Of a stretch of 64,000 nucleotides of DNA, positions 2,952 through 27,587 are shown piece after piece. Origin of the DNA: Candidatus Pullilachnospira stercoravium (GTDB lineage Bacteria; Bacillota; Clostridia; Lachnospirales; Lachnospiraceae). The first letter of the stretch is position 1. Each line of letters starts with the position of its first letter. A program made the position numbers and the translations under genes. The notes beneath the pieces are model-generated. The model was not told where the DNA came from, ran no database searches, and saw only the letters and a program-made list of their open reading frames with translations. The DNA lies in contig DVON01000292.1 in the NCBI GenBank assembly GCA_018713585.1, positions 4,749 through 68,748 on the forward strand, given 5' to 3'.

Positions 2952-3060
2952 TGGGATTGCAGCGGACGGCATATGCCATCCGTTCCGGGTGATATACAAA
3001 GGGTTCGATTGCTTCACATATAAGGTGGAAAGGGTTTTGCGGAATATTTCTGCAAAACCT

Positions 3061-3204
3061 GTAACAGTTCAGCCTTCCGGCTTCACTGTCACAAAAGCAT
3101 GCACACAGGCTGCGTTTCCCGCAGCCTGGCGCCTGCAGACCTCGGGATCCCGCTGCAAAAGCAGCGTGACACCTCGCGGGACAGTGGAAGTCTGAACTGT
3201 AACT
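3061..3204 (+). repeat. Full-length (~144 bp) copy of the dispersed REP/MITE-like intergenic repeat
   Basis: About 90% identical by eye to 27446-27587. The sequence begins GTAACAGTTCAGCCTTCCGGCTTCACTGTCAC and ends GACAGTGGAAGTCTGAACTGTAAC, so the termini are inverted. It contains an internal 8-bp hairpin CAGGCTGC-GTTTCCC-GCAGCCTG and small palindromes CCTGCAGA/G and GGGATCCC. Confidence 0.85.
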
Positions 3205-4140: not shown

Positions 4141-6909
4141 TTACTTTTTATACAGAATCCGGATGGAGTTCAGCACACACAGCATGGCGACGCCGGTATC
4201 CGCGAAGACTGCCAGCCACATGGAAGCAATGCCGAACAGACCCAGAATCATCACCAGCACCTTCACCACCAGCGCAAACACCACGTTCTGCATGGAGATG
4301 GAACGGGAAGATTTCGCGATGGCGATGGCCTGCGGGATGGCTTCCATATCCGATGTCATGAATACCACATCCGCCGCTTCAATGGCGGCATCCGCACCGC
4401 TTCCCATGGCTGCTCCCACATCCGCGCCGGCCAGAACCGGGGCGTCGTTGATGCCGTCGCCCACAAACATAACAGAACCGTGGGCTGCGCGGATTTTTTC
4501 CAGCTCTGACAGTTTTTCCTGGGGAAGAAGCCGGGCGTGTACCTCGTCAATGCCCGTTTCGCGGGCCACCGCTTCGGCGCTCTCTCTGGCATCGCCTGTC
4601 AGCATGGCGGTGACAATACCCTGATTTTTCATCCGTCCAATGGCAGACCGGGCGCCCTCCTTGATGGTGTCTGAAATCACCAGATGTCCGATGAAAACCC
4701 CGTCTCTGGCCACCAGAACCTCCGTGCCAAATCCGGTGTTCGGATATCCGTTCATGGAGATTCCCTCAGATTCCATAAGCTTGCGGTTTCCACAGAGAAA
4801 GACACCGTCCGGAAGCTGGGCACGGATTCCCTGCCCGGCAATTTCCTGAATTGCCAGAGGCTGGCTGATATCCAGCCCCTTATCCGCAGCTGCGGCTTTC
4901 ACACTCTCTCCGATGGGATGGGTGGAGGCGGATTCACAGGAAGCACACCAGGAAAGCAGCTGATCCGGGGAAATTCCTTCGGCGGGCGCCACATCCTGAA
5001 CCACAAAGTTGCCTTTGGTGATGGTTCCGGTTTTGTCCATGACAATGGCCTTGATGGTGGCGATGGCTTCCAGGGACAGACCGCCTTTAAAGAGGATGCC
5101 CTTTTTGGAGCCTGCTCCGATTCCGGAGAAGAAAGCCAGGGGGACACTGAGTACCAGGGCGCAGGGACAGCTGATTACCAGAAAACTGAGAGCCGTGTAC
5201 ACCCAGTGATTCCAGTCCCCGGTAACAAGAGACGGAATGACGGCGGTACACAGAGCCAGGATTACCACAAAGGGGGTATAGATCCGGGCAAAACGGGTGA
5301 TAAACCGGTCAATCTTCGGCTTTCTGGCAGCGGCATTTTCCACGGAATCCAGAATTCTTGTGACCATGGATTCCTCCAGTACCTTATCCGCGCGGATTTT
5401 CAGCAGTCCGGAGGTGTTGACGCATCCGGAGGTTACCGATGAACCTGCGGAAACCTTCACAGGCACCGGCTCGCCGGTTACCGGAGAGGTATCGATCCGG
5501 CTTTCTCCTTCCAGGACGGTGCCGTCCAGGGGGATCCGGTCCCCGGGGCGGACAAGAAGCGTATCGCCCACCCGGGCATTTTCCGCAGGGATCACCCGGA
5601 TGTTGTCACCGGAAACCAGATTGACCACTTCCGGACGCATATCCACCGCGTCCATAATCTGGGAACGGCTTCGCTCCACCGCCACATGCTCAAAAAATTC
5701 GCCCACCCGGTAAAACAGCATAACGCCCACTGCTTCCGGATATTCCCGGATCACGAACGCGCCCAACGTGGCGATGCTCATCAGAAAATTTTCGTCAAAC
5801 ACCTGTCCCTTAAACAGGTTCCGAACCGCTGTGAGAACAATCTCTCCGCCCAGGATCACATAACCGGCCACCAGAACCAGCAGGGATGCCAGTTCAAAAT
5901 CCATATGGAGCAGGATTTCTCCGGCGATAAACAGCAGCGCGCCAAATCCGATGGACAGGATATCCTTTCTGTTGGCAGCGAAGAATGATTTTTTCGCGGG
6001 GACAGTTCCCGGTGCAGTCTGAGACGCCTCCGCTGCATGGACTCGGCTCTCCTTTGGCGTTATGGTCACGTCCGGTTCAATGGTACGGCAGATGCGAAGC
6101 ATCTCTGAAACCAGAGCATCGGGATCCGCAGCGGTGACCCGCAGCTGCTTGGTGGCAAAAGTGATGGATGCTTCCTCCACTTCCGGAAGATCATTGATGC
6201 GGGATTCCATCTTTGCCGCACAGTTGGCACAGTCCAGATTGTCTATCAGATACGTTCTGGTGACGAAGGATGCGGCGCGCCGCGTGCGGGGAACCAGCTT
6301 TACCTCCGGTTCGATGGAGGCGCAGATCTCCTGCATCCGTGGCAGCAGGGAATCGGGATTGGCCGCTGCTACCCGCAGCTGCTTTGTGGCGAAGGTGATG
6401 GTGGCATCCGCCACGCCGGGAAGTTTCTGAATCTGTGCTTCCATTTTGGCGGCACAGTTGGCACAGCCCAGATTTTCCACCAGGTAAATCTTCTTCACAT
6501 ATCCATCAGGAATGGCCGCGGCGTGGTGGTGTTCGTGCGCTTCCTCGTGTGCATGGCCGTGGGAATGGTCGTGTCCGCAGCCGCAGGAATTGCCGTGGTG
6601 GTGATGTTCGTGTGCCTCATCATGCGCTTCGTGGGAGTGCTCATGTCCGCAGCCACAGGAATCGCCGTGGTGGTGATGTACGTGTGCTTCATCATGCGCT
6701 TCGTGGGAGTGCTCATGTCCGTGGCCACAGGAATCGTTATGATGGTGGTGCTCATGCTCTTCATCATGGGCGTGCTCATGTCCACAGGAGCAGGAATCGC
6801 TGTGGTGGTGCTCATGTTCATCGTCATGCGAATGGCCGTGGGAGTGCTCGTGCCCGCAGCCGCAGGCCTCCGCGCGAAGTCTTTCTGTAAGACGGTTTTT
6901 ATTCAGCAT
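4141..6909 (-). CDS. Heavy-metal translocating P1B-type ATPase (Cd2+/Zn2+-type) with a His-rich repeat N-terminus and two HMA domains
   Basis: The motifs present are DKTGTIT, SCPCAL (CPC), GDGINDAP and TGD. There are two HMA domains with CANCAAKME. The N-terminal ~130 aa consist of repeats of HEHSHEAHDEAHEHHHHG(D/N)SCGCGH. Confidence 0.92.
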   Translation of the reverse strand: MLNKNRLTERLRAEACGCGHEHSHGHSHDDEHEHHHSDSCSCGHEHAHDEEHEHHHHNDSCGHGHEHSHEAHDEAHVHHHHGDSCGCGHEHSHEAHDEAHEHHHHGNSCGCGHDHSHGHAHEEAHEHHHAAAIPDGYVKKIYLVENLGCANCAAKMEAQIQKLPGVADATITFATKQLRVAAANPDSLLPRMQEICASIEPEVKLVPRTRRAASFVTRTYLIDNLDCANCAAKMESRINDLPEVEEASITFATKQLRVTAADPDALVSEMLRICRTIEPDVTITPKESRVHAAEASQTAPGTVPAKKSFFAANRKDILSIGFGALLFIAGEILLHMDFELASLLVLVAGYVILGGEIVLTAVRNLFKGQVFDENFLMSIATLGAFVIREYPEAVGVMLFYRVGEFFEHVAVERSRSQIMDAVDMRPEVVNLVSGDNIRVIPAENARVGDTLLVRPGDRIPLDGTVLEGESRIDTSPVTGEPVPVKVSAGSSVTSGCVNTSGLLKIRADKVLEESMVTRILDSVENAAARKPKIDRFITRFARIYTPFVVILALCTAVIPSLVTGDWNHWVYTALSFLVISCPCALVLSVPLAFFSGIGAGSKKGILFKGGLSLEAIATIKAIVMDKTGTITKGNFVVQDVAPAEGISPDQLLSWCASCESASTHPIGESVKAAAADKGLDISQPLAIQEIAGQGIRAQLPDGVFLCGNRKLMESEGISMNGYPNTGFGTEVLVARDGVFIGHLVISDTIKEGARSAIGRMKNQGIVTAMLTGDARESAEAVARETGIDEVHARLLPQEKLSELEKIRAAHGSVMFVGDGINDAPVLAGADVGAAMGSGADAAIEAADVVFMTSDMEAIPQAIAIAKSSRSISMQNVVFALVVKVLVMILGLFGIASMWLAVFADTGVAMLCVLNSIRILYKK

Positions 6910-6937
6910 AGGAATTCCTCCTTGATATAAGATTCAT

Positions 6938-6966
6938 AAAACATATGAACAACTATTCATATGTTT
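6938..6966. promoter_or_regulatory. Palindromic operator AAACATATGAA-CAACTA-TTCATATGTTT, ArsR/SmtB (CzrA/CadC)-like, in the ATPase leader
   Basis: Perfect 11-bp inverted repeat with a 6-bp spacer. It contains TGAACA...TATTCA half-sites and lies directly downstream of the predicted -10 element of the ATPase promoter. Confidence 0.55.
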
Positions 6967-6995
6967 ATTATAGGAGGATTCCTGTAAAAAATCAA
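6967..6995 (-). promoter_or_regulatory. Sigma-A type promoter for the P-type ATPase (TTGATT-17 nt-TATAAT on the minus strand)
   Basis: The -35 element is the complement of AATCAA at 6990-6995. The -10 element is the complement of ATTATA at 6967-6972. The spacer is 17 nt. Confidence 0.5.
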
Positions 6996-7034
6996 TATGT
7001 TTAAAGAATATTATTTGAAAAATACATAAAATAA

Positions 7035-7089
7035 TCCCAACTTTAATCCCAATGTGTTATAGTAATGGCATTGGGATTAAAAGTTGGGA
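7035..7089. other. Long hairpin (about 20-bp stem, 14-nt loop): TCCCAACTTTAATCCCAATG ... CATTGGGATTAAAAGTTGGGA
   Basis: Inverted repeat read directly from the sequence, with one bulged A. On the minus strand it is followed by a T-rich tract (TTATTTTAT), so it may insulate the ATPase promoter from transcription leaving the islet. Confidence 0.5.
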
Positions 7090-7104
7090 AAAGGATAATA
7101 ATTT

Positions 7105-7315
7105 ATGAACATCGAAAAATTAGTTTTGGCTCTATGTGCATATAATGATGAACAGGAATGGTTTGAATTTAAAGAGAACTGGTTCCAGCCGGAAGTGCTT
7201 GGAGAATATGTATCGGCTTTATCAAATGCAGCTGCATTTCATCATAAGGCACAAGCATATTTTGTGTAGGGTGTAAATGATGAAACTCATGAGATTACAG
7301 GTACGACTTTTTTTT
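7105..7315 (+). pseudogene. Decayed N-terminal fragment of an AlbA_2/Schlafen-type putative DNA/RNA-binding-domain (ATP-binding) protein
   Basis: The translation is MNIEKLVLALCAYNDEQEWFEFKENWFQPEVLGEYVSALSNAAAFHHKAQAYFV*GVNDETHEITGTTFF. The EFKE...SA(L/F)(S/A)N...GV pattern is typical of AlbA_2 domains. There is an in-frame TAG at 7267-7269, one transition from TGG. Similarity stops after about 70 codons, whereas intact family members run to several hundred aa. Confidence 0.6.
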
Positions 7316-7320
7316 GCCCC

Positions 7321-7715
7321 TGTTTTTTATCTTTTGGCGAGTTGCTTACTATCCTTTGGTTTTGGTCCGATTTTGACAATCGCACCATGTACGCCTGTTT
7401 TGTTGCGCAGTAGAACGCCATTTTAAGGGGTACCAGTACCCCTGTTCTGTGTCTGCAAAGCCTTGCAGGTAGTAGCTTAATCAGCTTCCGCTGCGTAACA
7501 TTTCTCCATGATGTATAGAGGGCGATAGCACTCGTTGCTTGCGCCCCTTGATTACCCCACAGCAGGGGCGGACGGGCTTGTCAATGGCGGTGTAGCCGTT
7601 CTCACTTTTGACAAGAGCGGCTGGCTCTGCTGCCGCTTAGGTGGTTATTCGCCCATAATCTTCCCGATAAACGGGAAGTTGTCAATCTATGACTATACCG
7701 GTACTCCCCTACAAA
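7321..7715. other. GC-rich, hairpin-dense non-coding block inside the AT-rich islet; candidate structured RNA or element terminus of unknown class
   Basis: The local hairpins are GGGGTACCAGTACCCC, CTGCAA-AGCC-TTGCAG, GGGCG...CGCCC, CTTGTCAA...TTGACAAG, AGCGGC...GCCGCT and CTTCCCG-ATAAA-CGGGAAG. TTGACAA/TTGTCAA occurs four times. There is no convincing ORF. Confidence 0.35.
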
Positions 7716-8678
7716 TTAAGGTATCTCATTTAGTATCTGGCTTGGTGTCTGAATTCCAATTAATCTGATTTCATTTAATTCTTTTGCAGATAGGCAACCT
7801 GATTGATATAATCGTAAATACTCTTTTGAAACATCAGAATCAAAAATCAGTACATCATCTGAATTAATAGTAACATCTATGCCATTTCTGAACAATATCG
7901 AAATGGGGTGCTCCTTTATACTAGCCACTCTTCCCAGAAGCACATTACTTGATGGTGTAATGTTCAATCTTATTTTTTTCTCTTTCAAGAAATCCATTGC
8001 TTCTTTTGATTGTGCTGCCGCAATACCATGCTGAACTTCATCCAGATGTAACTTATTTATAGCTTGCATTACATCGTCAGCGGATCCCCATTCTCCAACA
8101 TGTGCTTTCAGTCTCAAGCCTTCTTCTTTTGCTTTCTCATAAATTGGAATGAAATTTTCAATCGGCTGTGCCTTTTCATCCCCATACAAATCTATAGAAT
8201 AAAACTGTTTATGTCCCCAAAAATGAGACAAACAATCCTCAAGATATGAAATCTCACAATGTCTCGATAATCCAATTTGTAAGCGCATCTCTATTTCTGG
8301 TGCTATCCGTTCATGAATCTCTTCGAATGAATCAACCAGCTCTTCAATATCATTATTGAAAAATGTTTTTAATCCCCAAACGTCTTCACCAATTTCTAAA
8401 ACTTTCACTCCATCATATTTTGCTTGAACAAATGTGGCTTCGATAAGTAATTTTCGTTGTTGTGAAGAATTGAATCTACTTCCTATATACTTGGTACTCC
8501 ATTCATCCATCTCCTTCATCGAAGTAATCGGATGTACTAAAGGTTCAATATAATAACCTGTTTTATTAAAAATGAACTGTCTATTTCCTCCCAAAACGAA
8601 GTGATTATGTAAATCAGATTTAGGACTCTTCCTTATTTCCGTTATATTTTCATTCTTTAATGCCTCTACAAAATCCAT
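7716..8678 (-). CDS. Adenosine/adenine deaminase-family metallohydrolase (A_deaminase fold), AT-rich and probably horizontally acquired
   Basis: The family signature residues are all present: SDLHNH (HxH), KAHVGEWG (H..GE), VQHG and TINSDDV (DD). GGAGGA lies 6 nt upstream of the ATG at 8678. Codon and GC usage differ clearly from neighbouring genes. Confidence 0.8.
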   Translation of the reverse strand: MDFVEALKNENITEIRKSPKSDLHNHFVLGGNRQFIFNKTGYYIEPLVHPITSMKEMDEWSTKYIGSRFNSSQQRKLLIEATFVQAKYDGVKVLEIGEDVWGLKTFFNNDIEELVDSFEEIHERIAPEIEMRLQIGLSRHCEISYLEDCLSHFWGHKQFYSIDLYGDEKAQPIENFIPIYEKAKEEGLRLKAHVGEWGSADDVMQAINKLHLDEVQHGIAAAQSKEAMDFLKEKKIRLNITPSSNVLLGRVASIKEHPISILFRNGIDVTINSDDVLIFDSDVSKEYLRLYQSGCLSAKELNEIRLIGIQTPSQILNEIP

Positions 8679-8929
8679 ATCTATCCTCCACTTTTACAAT
8701 TTCAAAGATTTGCCGTTCTTTTCAACTCCCTGATAAATCTAATTTGCTGCTCTGTTCAGATTATATAAAATAGCATCATTGCTTTCTGGCTTTTATCATA
8801 CCACAGTTCCCCCCTGTTTTTCCATTTCATTTTGTAAGTCTCACAGTGGATAGTCATTCGATAAAAATAAAAGAGGGTTTGGGGCGTTATGTCAGCCGCT
8901 GGACGCTATGCGAAAGGGGGCTGGTGCTT

Positions 8930-9016
8930 ATGGTTACATATTCTGATCTATTCAGTTTTGTGATTATGCTTTGCACTGTAATTACTCTTGTTATCCATTT
9001 TGCACGCAAAAAGTAG
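8930..9016 (+). CDS. 28-aa hydrophobic peptide resembling the putative holin-like toxin family (Hol-Tox, type I toxin-like)
   Basis: The peptide MVTYSDLFSFVIMLCTVITLVIHFARKK* has a polar N-terminus, a single TM helix and a basic tail. The RBS AAAGGGGG lies 9 nt upstream. A GTAGCG...CGCTAC hairpin overlaps the stop codon. The ORF is below the 60-aa cutoff of the ORF track. Confidence 0.55.
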   Translation: MVTYSDLFSFVIMLCTVITLVIHFARKK

Positions 9017-9148
9017 CGCCCTCGCTCTGGTAAAGTAAGACGCTACTTTCTGTAACTCTTATTATGACAATGGAAAGTATATTATATGCTTTTGGTGGAA
9101 AAGTTTCAACCCTGAAACACTGGAAAGTTCGCACAGCGTGCAACATTT

Positions 9149-9217
9149 CATCCTTCCAGTTTCACTGTCAAAAAAAGCATGCAAACAGGCTGTGTTTCCT
9201 GCAGGCCTAGGGATCCC
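9149..9217 (+). repeat. Divergent, internally deleted copy of the dispersed intergenic repeat
   Basis: CATCCTTCCAGTTTCACTGTCAAAAAAAGCATGCAAACAGGCTGTGTTTCCTGCAGGCCTAGGGATCCC aligns with the left half and core of the copies at 3061 and 27446. It lies just 3' of the racemase gene. Confidence 0.6.
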
Positions 9218-9240
9218 ACACAAGGGCTGTACGGTATCTC

Positions 9241-10356
9241 TCAGAAAGACGCAGCATCTTTCATCTCCTCCCCATCCCCCACAATAATTTTCGGAATATC
9301 CGGATCCGCCAGAAGCGGATTGATCCGGAAGGAGAGTACATCTCCCGGATTGAGCCCCAGTCCCGTCAGATCCACCAGTGTATGGCCGGTGCCGGTGTTG
9401 TCCAGAATGGGGACACGGCTTCCGTTTCTGGACAGACAGTACGCGTGATCCGGGAAAAACATATTCCGGACTGCATGCCGCAAAAGTCCGAGAGGTTCCC
9501 GGGACTGTCTTGCCAGCCCCAGGCCGTCCCCGCAGCCGGCCCGGACCACGCCGATGAGACTGTCCCTTTTCAGCTTCACATCTCTCCGGTATCCTGCATA
9601 CTCCCCGGCAGGATACCATTTCTTTTCGCAGATTTTTGCTTCCAGCCGAACCGCATCCTGAAAATCCGCCCGTCCCTCTGTCTCTTTTCCCAGAAGCAGA
9701 GATCCGATTCTCACCCCGTCATATCCCAGATCCCCGGCCCAGGCCAGCGTGCGGCTGGCGGCCGCGTGGACAAAGGGAACGGGAACGCCGGACTCCTCCA
9801 GAATCTTCAGCGCCTGGTCAAAACGCTGCTTCTGCAGAAGAATATTTTTCCGGTAATTTCTTCCGCAGGAGGCAAAATGCGTGTAGATGCCTTCAATATT
9901 CATATCCAGCGTGCAGAACTTCACGGTGAGAAGCGTATCCCGGAAAAATCCGTACCGCCCCAGGCCGGTATCGATCTTTATGTGAATCCGGGGAGATCTG
10001 CGCATACCCCGGGAAGCCTGGCGCAGCACATCCGCCTGCCGTGAATTTCCCACCATAAAAATAATATTTTCTTCCAGCAGCTGACTGCACAAGGGGAGGG
10101 AATATTCAGGTGTCAGAAGAAGAATATCGCCGGAAAACCCCAGATTCCGCAGCGTCAGTGCCTCCCGGGGAGTTCCCACGCAGAAAAAGTCTACGCCGCA
10201 GCCGGAAAGAATCCGGTAAGCAGACGCAATTCCGATACCATACCCGTCCTCCTTCACAACAGCCATCAGCCGGGCGCCGGTCAGCTGCCGGACGGCACGC
10301 ACATTGTTTTCGATACAGTCCCGGCGGATGACCAGCCGGCTTTCTTTCTTATCCAT
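9241..10356 (-). CDS. Alanine racemase-family PLP enzyme (paralog-like)
   Basis: The N-terminal motif LMAVVKEDGYGIG corresponds to the AVVKANAYGHG PLP-lysine motif. The length of 371 aa and the C-terminal beta-domain pattern (GEYAGYRR, VRAGCGDG) fit the family. Confidence 0.72.
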   Translation of the reverse strand: MDKKESRLVIRRDCIENNVRAVRQLTGARLMAVVKEDGYGIGIASAYRILSGCGVDFFCVGTPREALTLRNLGFSGDILLLTPEYSLPLCSQLLEENIIFMVGNSRQADVLRQASRGMRRSPRIHIKIDTGLGRYGFFRDTLLTVKFCTLDMNIEGIYTHFASCGRNYRKNILLQKQRFDQALKILEESGVPVPFVHAAASRTLAWAGDLGYDGVRIGSLLLGKETEGRADFQDAVRLEAKICEKKWYPAGEYAGYRRDVKLKRDSLIGVVRAGCGDGLGLARQSREPLGLLRHAVRNMFFPDHAYCLSRNGSRVPILDNTGTGHTLVDLTGLGLNPGDVLSFRINPLLADPDIPKIIVGDGEEMKDAASF

Positions 10357-27264: not shown

Positions 27265-27445
27265 GGTACAGACCGCCGCCGGCGGACAGAGAAAAGCAGC
27301 AAGGGCACGGGCATTTGGCCTGGGTCTCTGCTGCTTCATTTCGTTAAGGTTTCGCGGGATTCGGAACTTTTGTTTTGACAAGGCATACACGGTATGTTAC
27401 ACTAAAAAAGATTATAATAACGACAATATGGGGTAATATTTTGCA

Positions 27446-27587
27446 ACAGATCAGCCTTCCGGCTTCACTGTCACAAAAGTATGCACACAGGCTGCGTTTC
27501 CCGCAGCCTGGCGCCTGCAGGCCTCGGGATCCCGCTGCAAATATGCATCGGGACACCTCGCGGGATAGTTGAAGACTGAACTGTAAC
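27446..27587 (+). repeat. Full-length (~142 bp) copy of the dispersed REP/MITE-like intergenic repeat
   Basis: Near-identical to 3061-3204, with the same termini, hairpin core and palindromes. Confidence 0.85.

What the first reader, a model, noticed from the sequence alone, without database searches (positions are those of the whole stretch)
6997..9060. AT-rich foreign islet: decayed AlbA_2 gene, structured non-coding block, stand-alone adenosine-deaminase-family gene and holin-like toxin ORF
Composition changes abruptly at about 7000 and about 9060. By eye the islet is roughly one third G+C, against well over half in the flanks; I did not compute this.

The islet sits between the promoter of a metal ATPase and a copy of the host's dispersed repeat. 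It contains four things: a pseudogenised AlbA_2/Schlafen-type gene, a family often found in defence and mobile contexts; a ~400-bp GC-rich hairpin-dense segment; an adenosine-deaminase-fold gene with every catalytic signature intact (HxH, H..GE, HG, DD) but no purine-salvage neighbours; and a 28-codon hydrophobic toxin-like ORF.

Nucleotide-modifying deaminases are established effectors in anti-phage systems, for example RADAR RdrB adenosine deaminase and dCTP deaminases. A compact deaminase-plus-small-toxin islet of foreign composition is therefore a plausible uncharacterised defence or addiction module. That link is inference only. No integrase or flanking direct repeats were found.
Basis: partly seen in the sequence, partly recalled or inferred. 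Interest (0 to 1): 0.66.

Follow-up and report, generated by a model that had tools for sequence, protein, structure and literature searches.

The report
Decayed mobile-DNA patchwork with deaminase gene
The AT-rich islet is real, but it is a scrapyard of three unrelated mobile-element fragments, one of which still carries an intact adenosine-deaminase-type gene, and not a coordinated anti-phage or addiction module.

Summary
Window 7004-8996 has 37.6% G+C against 53-55% in the flanks, and every listed part is present. The defence or addiction reading is not supported.

Contigs of the same species show two alleles. A minority carries the islet. At least 13 contigs carry a short allele that joins 7003 to 8997.

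The islet is three unrelated mobile-element scraps joined end to end:
- 7032-7311 is the 5' end of an AlbA_2/HATPase_c_4/HTH gene typical of conjugative elements.
- 7309-8883 is the armless core of a 2.1-kb integrase-less integrative cassette. It consists of the "structured block", the deaminase gene and the region upstream of that gene.
- 8879-9052 is a 175-nt small-hydrophobic-peptide module known from an integrated ParAB/serine-integrase element.

The short allele keeps the 3' third of the third module, so it is a deletion derivative, not an empty target.

The deaminase belongs to a large family. In about 78 Clostridia species it has host-like composition and no conserved neighbours. It is closest to metabolic adenosine and adenine deaminases, and no RADAR, Cad1 or Kongming partners are present.

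The block travels with the cassette backbone, not with the enzyme family, and in this lineage it evolves at about the synonymous rate.

The modestly new item is the cassette family itself.

The parts
7004..7031 (.). AT-rich left junction. It is partly alignable with the 30-nt filler of the short allele (TGTTTA...TTGAAAAA..ATA).
   Evidence: The alignment was made by eye and the stretch is short, so this is only suggestive.
7033..7089 (.). 57-nt near-perfect palindrome directly upstream of the AlbA_2 start. It belongs to the ICE-type AlbA_2 gene's 5' region.
   Evidence: The sequence is shown. A spurious miRNA-hairpin hit marks it. It lies inside the 75.6% match 7032-7311 to L141-L148.
7105..7311 (+). 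AlbA_2 (Schlafen-type) gene remnant. It comprises the first ~69 codons, has an in-frame TAG at 7267-7269, and is cut off at 7311.
   Evidence: Pfam scores 30.6 bits with read-through. The remnant is 75.6% identical to the 5' end of the AlbA_2/HATPase_c_4/HTH genes of relaxase- and serine-recombinase-bearing elements.
7309..7715 (-). The 'structured non-coding block'. It is backbone DNA of the integrase-less cassette, lying 3' of the deaminase. Its role is unknown and it has two deletions (14 and 12 nt) relative to complete cassettes.
   Evidence: There is no Rfam, plasmid, phage or protein relative.
7716..8678 (-). Intact 320-aa adenosine-deaminase-family gene, the cargo of the cassette.
   Evidence: Against the cassette copies it shows 7 synonymous and 6 non-synonymous codon changes.
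8679..8883 (-). Upstream region of the deaminase, which belongs to the cassette core. It contains a promoter-like site at 8824-8795.
   Evidence: The number of promoter-like matches is not above chance.
8879..9052 (+). Small-peptide module: conserved leader, ribosome-binding site, 28-codon ORF (8930-9016) and hairpin with T-tract (9013-9052). Its native promoter is missing. The last ~60 nt are shared with the short allele.
   Evidence: The module is 81% identical over 177 nt to L149, L150 and L158. The peptide family is shown and its context.
9131..9204 (.). Copy of a ~70-nt dispersed host repeat. It lies outside the islet.
   Evidence: It is 82-83% identical to 3052-3124 and 27442-27506.

Best explanation
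The islet is a degraded patchwork of three unrelated pieces of mobile DNA, fused by illegitimate recombination in the spacer between an alanine-racemase-like gene and a heavy-metal ATPase gene.

**Piece 1 (7032-7311).** This is the dead 5' end of an AlbA_2/HATPase_c_4/HTH gene of the kind carried by conjugative or mobilizable elements of gut Clostridia.

**Piece 2 (7309-8883).** This is the core of a 2,104-bp integrase-less integrative cassette.
- In other genomes the cassette ends in 9-bp direct repeats (ATTTTTTAT).
- It has subterminal tandem GGGCACCA sites.
- Its arms are those of prophage-like elements that encode an arm-binding tyrosine integrase.
- The window copy has lost both arms, so it can no longer move.
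- It keeps the cargo, a zinc-dependent purine (adenosine or adenine type) deaminase, and about 400 bp of cassette backbone, which is the 'structured block'.

**Piece 3 (8879-9052).** This is a small-hydrophobic-peptide module, type I-toxin-like, that elsewhere sits in the maintenance region of an integrated ParAB/serine-integrase element. Here it lacks its own promoter.

**History and function.**
- Most strains of the species have since deleted 7004-8996 and keep only the module's terminator.
- The one part likely to work is the deaminase. I infer that it acts on its own as a metabolic or detoxifying enzyme that hydrolytically deaminates C6 of an adenine ring in a nucleoside, base or analogue. 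I do not see it as an immune effector.

**Shown:** the anatomy, the origins of the pieces, the allele polymorphism and the fold.

**Inferred:** the order of events, trans-mobilisation of the cassette, and the substrate.
For: **Alleles**
- Filled and short alleles occur in the same species, with flanks 99.4-99.9% identical.
- The short allele retains the 3' end of the 175-nt module that is contiguous in unrelated elements.

**Where the core occurs elsewhere**
- Only 7309-8883 is shared with L017, a Ca. Gemmiger MAG, at 96% identity.
- The same stretch occurs in L097 and L098.

**The complete cassette**
- It has identical ends in several chromosomal contexts.
- Its right arm and terminal 12-mer follow the stop codon of a 434-aa integrase that has Arm-DNA-bind_4 and Phage_integrase domains.
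- Its left arm is 87-88% identical to the left ends of larger elements.
- A sibling cassette has the same ends and a different cargo.

**The other two pieces**
- The AlbA_2 piece matches genes of ICE-like elements.
- The small ORF's family and context are shown.

**The deaminase**
- The catalytic residues are invariant.
- The model has pLDDT 87.
- The best structural matches are Plasmodium and bacterial adenosine deaminases and adenine deaminases, at E 1e-18 to 1e-16. Cad1 scores 1e-12.
- The family has native composition in 78 species.
- No neighbour is conserved. The best is an ABC exporter in 12 of 78 loci, followed by GNAT acetyltransferases.
- Codon changes are compatible with purifying selection.
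- The block drifts at about the synonymous rate and has two indels.
Against: - No excision product or empty site of the 2.1-kb cassette was seen, so its mobility rests on identical ends in different contexts.
- Two of those contexts (B and C) share one flank.
- The integrase-linked arms are only 81-88% identical over 68-165 nt.
- A ~75-nt core of the block is kept in three diverged versions. One hairpin in it changes sequence but stays a hairpin. A function for that core is therefore not excluded.
- The substrate is untested. The family lacks the acidic residue after the HxH motif that canonical adenosine deaminases use for the ribose 5'-OH. This comes from my own comparison with the mouse enzyme and not from a tool.
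- Expression of any part in this host is unknown.
Confidence: 0.72

Rival explanations
1. One reading: the islet is an uncharacterised defence or addiction module. The deaminase is the effector, acting on ATP, dATP or dAMP as in RADAR, Cad1 or Kongming. The small hydrophobic peptide is a toxin, and the structured block may be a regulatory RNA.
For: - ADA-fold enzymes are proven immune effectors: PMC9994260, PMC11645235 and bioRxiv 10.1101/2024.12.20.629578.
- PADLOC gives a hit to the ADA domain of CARF-ADA at E 3e-19.
- All three pieces come from mobile elements, which are where defence genes gather.
- The small ORF family sits between repressors and an integrase, a typical place for type I toxins (PMC7699646 for the concept).
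Against: - The parts do not co-occur anywhere else.
- The junction between them is a breakpoint that removes the ORF's promoter region.
- There is no RdrA, CARF, HAM1 or SIR2 partner.
- The enzyme is nearer to metabolic deaminases.
- It is a resident gene in 78 species.
- Most strains have lost the islet.
Confidence: 0.06
2. The block is a functional element of the cassette and not a relic. It could be a structured RNA made from the deaminase strand, or a DNA site such as an origin of transfer or a recombination enhancer that lets the integrase-less cassette be moved by helper elements.
For: - The block folds better than shuffled sequence, with z-scores of -3.3 and -4.3.
- It is kept in every complete cassette.
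- A ~75-nt core (TTGACAAG...CCCC.GC.TG.G.GG..AA.CAAG plus a hairpin) survives in the Eisenbergiella copy L018 and in the sibling cassette L127, which has a different cargo. The hairpin stem reads GGGCG/CGCCC, GAGAGC/GCTCTC and GGTC/GACC in the three versions.
Against: - There is no Rfam family.
- There is no match in plasmids or phages.
- Only three diverged versions exist, which is too few for a covariation test.
- Most of the block is absent from L018 and L127.
- Between the window and L017 the block changes at 3.2% and has two indels, about the synonymous rate.
- In the window the arms it would serve are gone.
Confidence: 0.25
3. The block is the decayed remnant of the cassette's own tyrosine integrase gene, because it sits where the integrase lies in the autonomous relatives.
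For: - Position: the integrase stop is followed by the same right arm in L126 and L129.
- There are two weak, collinear, same-frame tblastn matches.
- There is a lysine-rich pseudo-C-terminus just before the arm.
Against: - The tblastn E-values are about 2 in a tiny search space.
- Nucleotide scores lie inside the shuffle range.
- The longest stop-free stretch finds only translated tandem-repeat non-genes among 1.84 billion representatives.
- There is no Pfam integrase signal on the + strand ORFs that overlap the block. The translations of the deaminase strand were not scanned against Pfam.
Confidence: 0.12
4. The islet was inserted as one piece into an empty site. On this view the short allele is ancestral and the islet is a recent arrival.
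For: - The short allele is the majority, in 13 or more contigs.
- The islet is compositionally foreign.
Against: - The short allele contains the last codons and the terminator hairpin of the small-peptide module, which is one contiguous 175-nt unit in unrelated elements.
- There are no target duplications or att-like repeats at 7004 and 8996.
- The 82 nt next to the boundary are only 95% identical between alleles, against 99.7% elsewhere.
Confidence: 0.12

Closest known systems
CIMEs (cis-mobilizable elements): decayed integrative elements that have lost their integration and transfer genes but keep attL and attR (definition in PMC5704250)
   Same: - The complete 2.1-kb deaminase cassette has no recombinase.
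- It keeps both arms of an integrase-bearing element family.
- It is bounded by a 9-bp direct repeat.
- It is found at several chromosomal sites.
   Different: - It is very small and carries a single cargo gene.
- Its helpers look like prophages (IMG/VR contigs) and not like ICEs.
- It inserts at several T-rich sites and not at one gene end.
- Mobility is not demonstrated.
- The window copy has lost both arms, so it is not even a CIME any more.
Metabolic adenosine and adenine deaminases (Pfam PF00962; E. coli Add type, Plasmodium ADA, Pseudomonas and Arthrobacter adenine deaminases)
   Same: - It has the (beta/alpha)8 fold.
- The zinc ligands and catalytic Glu, His and Asp are all present.
- It is a stand-alone protein of about 320 aa.
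- These are the best sequence and structure matches.
   Different: - Identity is only 20-25%.
- It falls under a separate NCBIfam model, NF006856.
- The acidic residue after HxH is missing (my own comparison).
- No member of this subfamily is known to me to have been assayed.
- There is no purine-salvage context.
Defence deaminases: RADAR RdrB, CRISPR-associated Cad1 (CARF-ADA) and Kongming KomA
   Same: They share the ADA fold and catalytic motifs. KomA is also a stand-alone PF00962 protein.
   Different: - There is no RdrA, no CARF domain, and no KomB (HAM1) or KomC (SIR2) gene nearby.
- RdrB scores 15 bits against a cut-off of 800.
- Cad1 ranks below all metabolic deaminases.
Type I toxin-antitoxin modules on prophages and other mobile elements of Clostridia (PMC7699646)
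   Same: - The ORF encodes a short hydrophobic peptide with a basic tail.
- It has a conserved leader and a terminator.
- It lies in the maintenance region of an integrated element.
   Different: - No antitoxin RNA was identified.
- There is no hit to Pfam Hol_Tox or to any NCBIfam toxin model.
- Toxicity is untested.
- In the window the native promoter region is gone.
COG2865-type AlbA_2/HATPase_c_4/HTH proteins of ICE-like elements
   Same: The N-terminal 69 codons and 73 nt of upstream sequence are 75.6% identical at the DNA level. The closest protein fragments are 72-93% identical.
   Different: The window copy is a stump with a stop codon. It has no ATPase or HTH part.

Membership tests
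Adenosine/AMP deaminase superfamily (Pfam PF00962) | Significant match to the family model | tested here: met
   E 1.1e-34, 120.5 bits against a cut-off of 27.
Adenosine/AMP deaminase superfamily (Pfam PF00962) | Zinc ligands and catalytic residues: HxH, HxxE, H and DD | tested here: met
   H24, H26, H193, E196, H217, D274 and D275 are invariant in 25 homologues. The (beta/alpha)8 model has pLDDT 87 and TM 0.8 to Plasmodium ADA.
NCBIfam NF006856 'adenosine deaminase' (equivalog) | Score at or above the curated cut-off | tested here: not met
   451.8 bits against a cut-off of 510, although the match is full length at 2-310 of 316. The protein is a close relative just below the naming threshold.
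Adenosine deaminase in the strict sense (EC 3.5.4.4) | Deaminates adenosine or deoxyadenosine | not testable with these tools
   This needs an enzyme assay. The structural neighbours include both adenosine and adenine deaminases.
RADAR (RdrA + RdrB) | RdrB-type deaminase of ~850 aa, with an adjacent RdrA ATPase | tested here: not met
   NF041744 scores 15.3 bits against a cut-off of 800. No ATPase gene lies next to it.
Cad1 (CARF-ADA, type III CRISPR ancillary) | CARF sensor domain fused to the ADA domain, in a CRISPR context | tested here: not met
   The PADLOC hit covers only profile positions 367-556 of 605, which is the ADA part. The protein is 320 aa. No cas genes are nearby.
Kongming (KomABC) | Three-gene operon: ADA, HAM1-like protein and SIR2-like protein | tested here: not met
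   No such neighbours are in the window or in the annotated homologous loci. No neighbour recurs in more than 12 of 78 loci.
Cis-mobilizable / integrase-less integrative element | attL and attR: direct repeats at both ends plus arms of an integrase-bearing element | tested here: not met
   The feature is met by the complete cassettes in L017, L103 and others. It is not met in the window, where homology stops at 7309 and 8883 and both arms and the ATTTTTTAT repeats are absent.
Cis-mobilizable / integrase-less integrative element | Excision or integration driven by a helper integrase | not testable with these tools
   Only identical ends in different contexts were seen. No circular junction or empty site was found.
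Holin-like / type I toxin peptides | Match to a curated family model (Pfam Hol_Tox or NCBIfam toxin models) | tested here: not met
   There is no Pfam hit at E up to 1. NCBIfam gives only SidA at E 0.025, which is below its cut-off.
Holin-like / type I toxin peptides | Short hydrophobic peptide with a basic tail, a conserved untranslated leader, a terminator, and location on a mobile element | tested here: met
Holin-like / type I toxin peptides | Cognate antisense antitoxin RNA, and toxicity on overexpression | not tested
   No antitoxin was sought beyond Rfam, which gave no hit. Toxicity needs an experiment.
AlbA_2 / Schlafen-type domain (PF04326) | Domain match above the gathering score | tested here: inconclusive
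   The 54-aa ORF as it stands scores 16.1 bits, which is below the cut-off. With the TAG read through, the score is 30.6 bits against 25.3, covering model positions 1-48 of 118. It is a fragment of a true family member.

The most novel reading that the evidence does not exclude
The 2.1-2.4-kb cassettes seen in the relatives may be a so far undescribed family of miniature, integrase-less integrative elements of gut Clostridia.

**Shared features**
- Termini are ATTTTTTAT.
- Subterminal tandem GGGCACCA sites sit about 140 nt from each end.
- A hairpin-rich backbone segment is conserved.
- Each cassette carries one exchangeable cargo: the deaminase in one, and a MarR regulator plus a membrane protein in another.

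**Proposed mechanism**
- Arm-binding tyrosine integrases of resident prophage-like elements would move the cassettes in trans into T-rich sites after terminators.
- The conserved core of the 'block' would be the cis site or RNA that this parasitism needs.

The window holds a dead copy.
Probability: 0.3. Interest if true: 0.5.

Novelty: new member of a known kind. Interest (0 to 1): 0.3.

Why it matters
For the window itself it matters little. The islet shows how intergenic spacers collect and then shed scraps of mobile DNA. It also warns that a deaminase next to a small hydrophobic ORF in foreign-looking DNA is not enough to call a defence system.

Two things may be worth a follow-up:
- **The ADA subfamily.** It is large, with at least 2,962 proteins, is about 70% identical across Lachnospiraceae and Oscillospiraceae, and as far as I know is unassayed. 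It lacks the usual ribose-binding acidic residue. It often sits among acetyltransferases, exporters and esterases, so its substrate may not be plain adenosine.
- **The small cassettes.** They appear to move this gene between Gemmiger-like, Eisenbergiella-like and other gut bacteria without a recombinase of their own.

Tried and rejected
**1. Known RNA family for the block.** Rfam was run at E up to 1 on 6500-9700 and at gathering thresholds on the whole window. It returned only two chance miRNA-like hits.

**2. Block in plasmids or phages.** blastn with 11-nt words found nothing.

**3. Block as a coding remnant.**
- Six-frame reading showed nothing.
- The + strand ORFs that overlap it gave no Pfam family at gathering score.
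- tblastn and blastn against the L126 integrase were not above shuffled controls.
- A phmmer search of 1.84 billion representatives found only translated tandem repeats.

**4. Block as a partner of the deaminase family.** nhmmer over 80 genome loci found it only in L017, and in part in L018.

**5. Transposon models for the cassette.**
- There are no terminal inverted repeats.
- The same 9-mer at both ends in every context argues against a target duplication.
- An IS200/IS605-like single-strand model was dropped once both arms were found at the ends of integrase-bearing elements.

**6. tRNA-linked integration.** L017 and L018 lie next to tRNA genes, but other contexts do not.

**7. Purine-salvage or other conserved operon.** Neighbour clustering over 78 loci found none.

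**8. Defence-system models.** PADLOC and NCBIfam found none.

**10. Host identity.** The nearest named genome carrying the cassette, a Ca. Gemmiger stercoripullorum MAG, shares only 7309-8883 with the window.


Full report
**1. The observation**

Sliding-window composition shows a sharp trough. G+C is 0.29-0.40 from about 6900 to 9100, with a local rise to 0.47-0.52 at 7350-7800. The flanks are at 0.55-0.60. Over the polymorphic segment 7004-8996 the G+C is 0.376. That is the lowest 2-kb stretch in the 64-kb window, whose mean is 0.512 with sd 0.035. Third-position G+C is 0.26 in the deaminase and 0.62-0.64 in the two neighbouring host genes.

- **AlbA_2 stump.** It starts at 7105 and carries an in-frame TAG at 7267-7269. 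It passes the Pfam gathering score only when that stop is read through: 30.6 bits against 25.3, covering model positions 1-48 of 118.
- **Block.** About 400 bp at 50% G+C, folding better than shuffled sequence on both strands, with z-scores of -3.3 and -4.3.
- **Deaminase.** A 320-codon ADA-family gene on the minus strand at 7716-8678, with all catalytic motifs.
- **Small ORF.** A 28-codon hydrophobic ORF at 8930-9016 with a strong ribosome-binding site and a 3' hairpin.
- **Dispersed repeat.** A ~70-nt repeat at 9131-9204 that occurs twice more in the window.

No tRNA gene and no Rfam family lies anywhere in the window.

**2. Where the islet ends, and which allele is derived**

Look-ups of the exact deaminase and of the adjacent alanine-racemase-like protein returned metagenome contigs of the same species, with flanks 99.4-99.9% identical. 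Most come from chicken-gut studies.
- Contigs L001/L008, L002, L003, L010, L013 and L015 carry the islet.
- Contigs L009, L014, L016 and L113-L122 carry a short allele. In it, window 7003 is joined to 8997 through 30 nt (GTGTTTATTGAAAAAAATATTCAATTTTAC).

The short allele is therefore the majority. It is not a virgin site, for two reasons:
- The small ORF is part of a contiguous ~175-nt module (window 8879-9052) comprising leader, ribosome-binding site, ORF, stop, hairpin and T-tract. That module is 81% identical to a module in unrelated integrated elements L149, L150 and L158.
- The short allele retains the last codons and the hairpin of that module.

The simplest history is that an ancestor carried mobile-element DNA here and most strains later deleted about 2 kb. 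The 82 nt next to the boundary are only 95% identical between alleles, against 99.7% elsewhere. That fits an old or recombined polymorphism.

**3. The islet is three unrelated pieces**

*(a) 7032-7311.* This stretch includes the 57-nt palindrome upstream of the AlbA_2 start. It is 75.6% identical to the 5' end of an AlbA_2/HATPase_c_4/HTH gene. In loci L141-L148 that gene sits among a MobA/MobL relaxase, large serine recombinases, ArdC, helicases and restriction-modification genes. The closest protein relatives are all short fragments of the same gene.

*(b) 7309-8883.* This is the only part shared with a Candidatus Gemmiger stercoripullorum MAG (L017, 96% identity, host G+C about 0.6). The same stretch matches two metagenome contigs at 96-98% identity. 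An Eisenbergiella MAG (L018) shares the gene at 93% identity, plus two short stretches of the block.

*(c) 8879-9052.* This is the small-peptide module. Pieces (b) and (c) overlap by the five bases TTGGG, which is a microhomology breakpoint. The junction replaces the sequence that lies upstream of the leader in L149.

The small ORF is absent from every other deaminase locus. The deaminase is absent from the ten small-ORF loci.

**4. What piece (b) comes from**

In L017 and in about 25 further contigs, the deaminase lies in a discrete 2,104-bp unit with identical ends.
- The unit begins ATTTTTTAT-TGATTTGATAGACGG and ends ACT-ATTTTTTAT. It is therefore bounded by a 9-bp direct repeat.
- It has no terminal inverted repeats.
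- It carries the tandem site GGGCACCA-TTT-GGG[C/A]ACCA in direct orientation, about 147 nt from the left end and 136 nt from the right end.
- A perfect 15-bp hairpin lies near the right end.
- It encodes no recombinase.

The unit occurs in the following contexts:
- between tRNA-Ser and parC;
- upstream of a methionine-gamma-lyase gene, with two different left flanks;
- next to other genes in L097 and L098.

Scans of IMG/VR with the subterminal site and with the left terminus gave the key link.
- In L124-L126 and L129, a 434-aa tyrosine integrase with Arm-DNA-bind_4, SAM-like and catalytic domains ends just before a sequence that is 81% identical to the cassette's right arm. That sequence terminates in the same ACTATTTTTTAT.
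- In L159 and L160, larger elements begin with a left arm 87-88% identical to the cassette's, followed by real genes.
- L127 holds a sibling cassette of about 2.36 kb with the same termini and arms and a ~75-nt core of the block. Its cargo is different: a MarR regulator and a 229-aa membrane protein.

The deaminase unit is thus an integrase-less derivative of an integrative element family. It matches the published definition of a cis-mobilizable element (PMC5704250). Trans-mobilisation is inferred and not shown.

The window copy lacks both arms, the terminal repeats and the GGGCACCA sites. It is therefore an immobile fragment.

**5. The 'structured block'**

The block belongs to the cassette backbone, not to the enzyme.
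- Among 80 genome loci with family members, it is found only in L017, and in part in L018.
- It has no Rfam, plasmid or phage relative.
- I tested whether it is a dead integrase gene, because it occupies that position. Protein and nucleotide comparisons with the L126 integrase are not above shuffled controls.
- Its longest stop-free stretch finds only translated tandem repeats among 1.84 billion representatives.
- A core of about 75 nt is conserved among the L017-type, L018 and L127 versions. It includes a hairpin whose stem sequence differs in the three versions while pairing is kept. Three sequences are too few for a test, so a cis-acting site or a small RNA remains possible for complete cassettes.
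- Between the window and L017 the block differs at 13 of 405 aligned positions (3.2%) and has two deletions of 14 and 12 nt.
- The gene differs at 13 of 963 positions, with 7 synonymous and 6 non-synonymous codon changes.

In this lineage the block therefore drifts at about the synonymous rate.

**6. The deaminase**

*Family and fold*
- The family is large, with 2,962 proteins at E up to 0.001 in a word-indexed search. It is strongly conserved, at about 70% identity across Butyrivibrio, Roseburia, Ruminococcus-like and other Clostridia.
- It matches NCBIfam NF006856 over its full length, just under the naming cut-off.
- The AlphaFold model built with 25 homologues has pLDDT 87.
- The best structural matches are Plasmodium adenosine deaminases, Salmonella and Vibrio adenosine deaminases, and Pseudomonas and Arthrobacter adenine deaminases, at E 3e-18 to 4e-16 and TM about 0.75-0.8.
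- Cad1 structures follow at about 1e-12. Sequence search of the PDB gives the same order.

*Genomic setting in other species*
- In 78 other species the gene's G+C equals that of its flanks, with a median difference of +0.009.
- Only L017, L018 and a few others look foreign.
- There is no conserved neighbour. The commonest is an ABC exporter in 12 of 78 loci, followed by GNAT acetyltransferases, a MerR-methyltransferase and an esterase.
- The annotated examples show acetyltransferases, a GMP-synthase-like gene, NUDIX, YjeF_N and an erythromycin-esterase-like gene.
- None of the partners that define RADAR, Cad1 or Kongming is present.

I conclude that the enzyme is a stand-alone hydrolytic purine deaminase with a metabolic or detoxifying role. 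The window holds a recently transferred low-G+C copy. The substrate is unknown. In my own comparison with the mouse enzyme, the motif reads HNHFVLGG where canonical enzymes have an acidic residue two positions after the second histidine.

**7. The small ORF**

The peptide MVTYSDLFSFVIMLCTVITLVIHFARKK has 36 relatives, with identities of 64-91% in the table. The tested example lies between HTH_3 repressor-like genes and a large serine integrase, in an integrated element that also has ParA and ParB. This resembles the type I toxins that stabilise mobile elements in Clostridioides difficile (PMC7699646).

Several things remain unshown. No curated toxin model matches, no antitoxin was identified, and in the window the upstream promoter region has been replaced.

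**8. Verdict**

The interpretation as one functional defence or addiction module is not supported. The parts are a chance assembly of relics, most strains have lost them, and the enzyme is of a resident metabolic type.

What is modestly new is the small integrase-less cassette family that carried the gene. It needs a wider survey and an excision test.

Noticed in passing
window 6483-6700 (inside the ATPase gene 4141-6909, - strand): The histidine-rich N-terminal repeat region of the heavy-metal P-type ATPase varies in length between strains. Products are 785, 853, 898, 914, 922 and 946 aa. The region contains internal repeats 82-83% identical.
   Followed up: partly
window about 6943-6995: A promoter-like site at 6995-6967 on the - strand (TTGATT-17-TATAAT) is followed by the palindrome ATATGAACAACTATTCATATG, ahead of the ATPase start. 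It looks like a metal-repressor operator. It is conserved in both alleles.
   Followed up: no
window 9078-9125: A 48-nt segment is present in the window and in short-allele contig L009. It is absent from 11 other short-allele contigs. This is a second small indel polymorphism in the same spacer.
   Followed up: no
window 9131-9204, 3052-3124 and 27442-27506: A ~70-nt dispersed repeat, 82-83% identical between copies. The copy at 9131-9204 lies just downstream of the alr-like gene. Many metagenome contigs break near it.
   Followed up: partly
L127 221-2582 (IMG/VR contig IMGVR_UViG_3300029485_000248): A sibling cassette with the same ATTTTTTAT termini, arms and block core as the deaminase cassette. 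It carries a MarR regulator and a 229-aa membrane protein instead.
   Followed up: partly
L103/L133 versus L099/L135: The complete deaminase cassette has the same right flank (the methionine-gamma-lyase side) in both pairs. The left flanks are unrelated and start exactly at the cassette end. This could reflect recombination between cassette copies or tandem accretion.
   Followed up: no
L141-L148 (gene at 6001-7380 in most of them): The AlbA_2/HATPase_c_4/HTH gene of ICE-like elements is called as two ORFs, of 99 aa and 351 aa, in all eight loci shown. The 99-aa product is on record in well over a hundred contigs. This could be a shared frameshift, a programmed event or a widespread pseudogene.
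   Followed up: no
L017 7368-7459 and L018 1-55: In two different genera the deaminase DNA lies directly downstream of a tRNA gene and its terminator. It is tRNA-Ser(gga) in L017 and a tRNA 3' end in L018. Other insertion contexts have no tRNA.
   Followed up: partly
P0007 (475 aa): One close homologue of the deaminase, 72% identical, is fused to a NUDIX domain (PF00293). This hints at a nucleotide-related substrate for the family.
   Followed up: no
P0285 (91 aa): One relative of the small ORF carries two tandem copies of the hydrophobic peptide in one reading frame.
   Followed up: no
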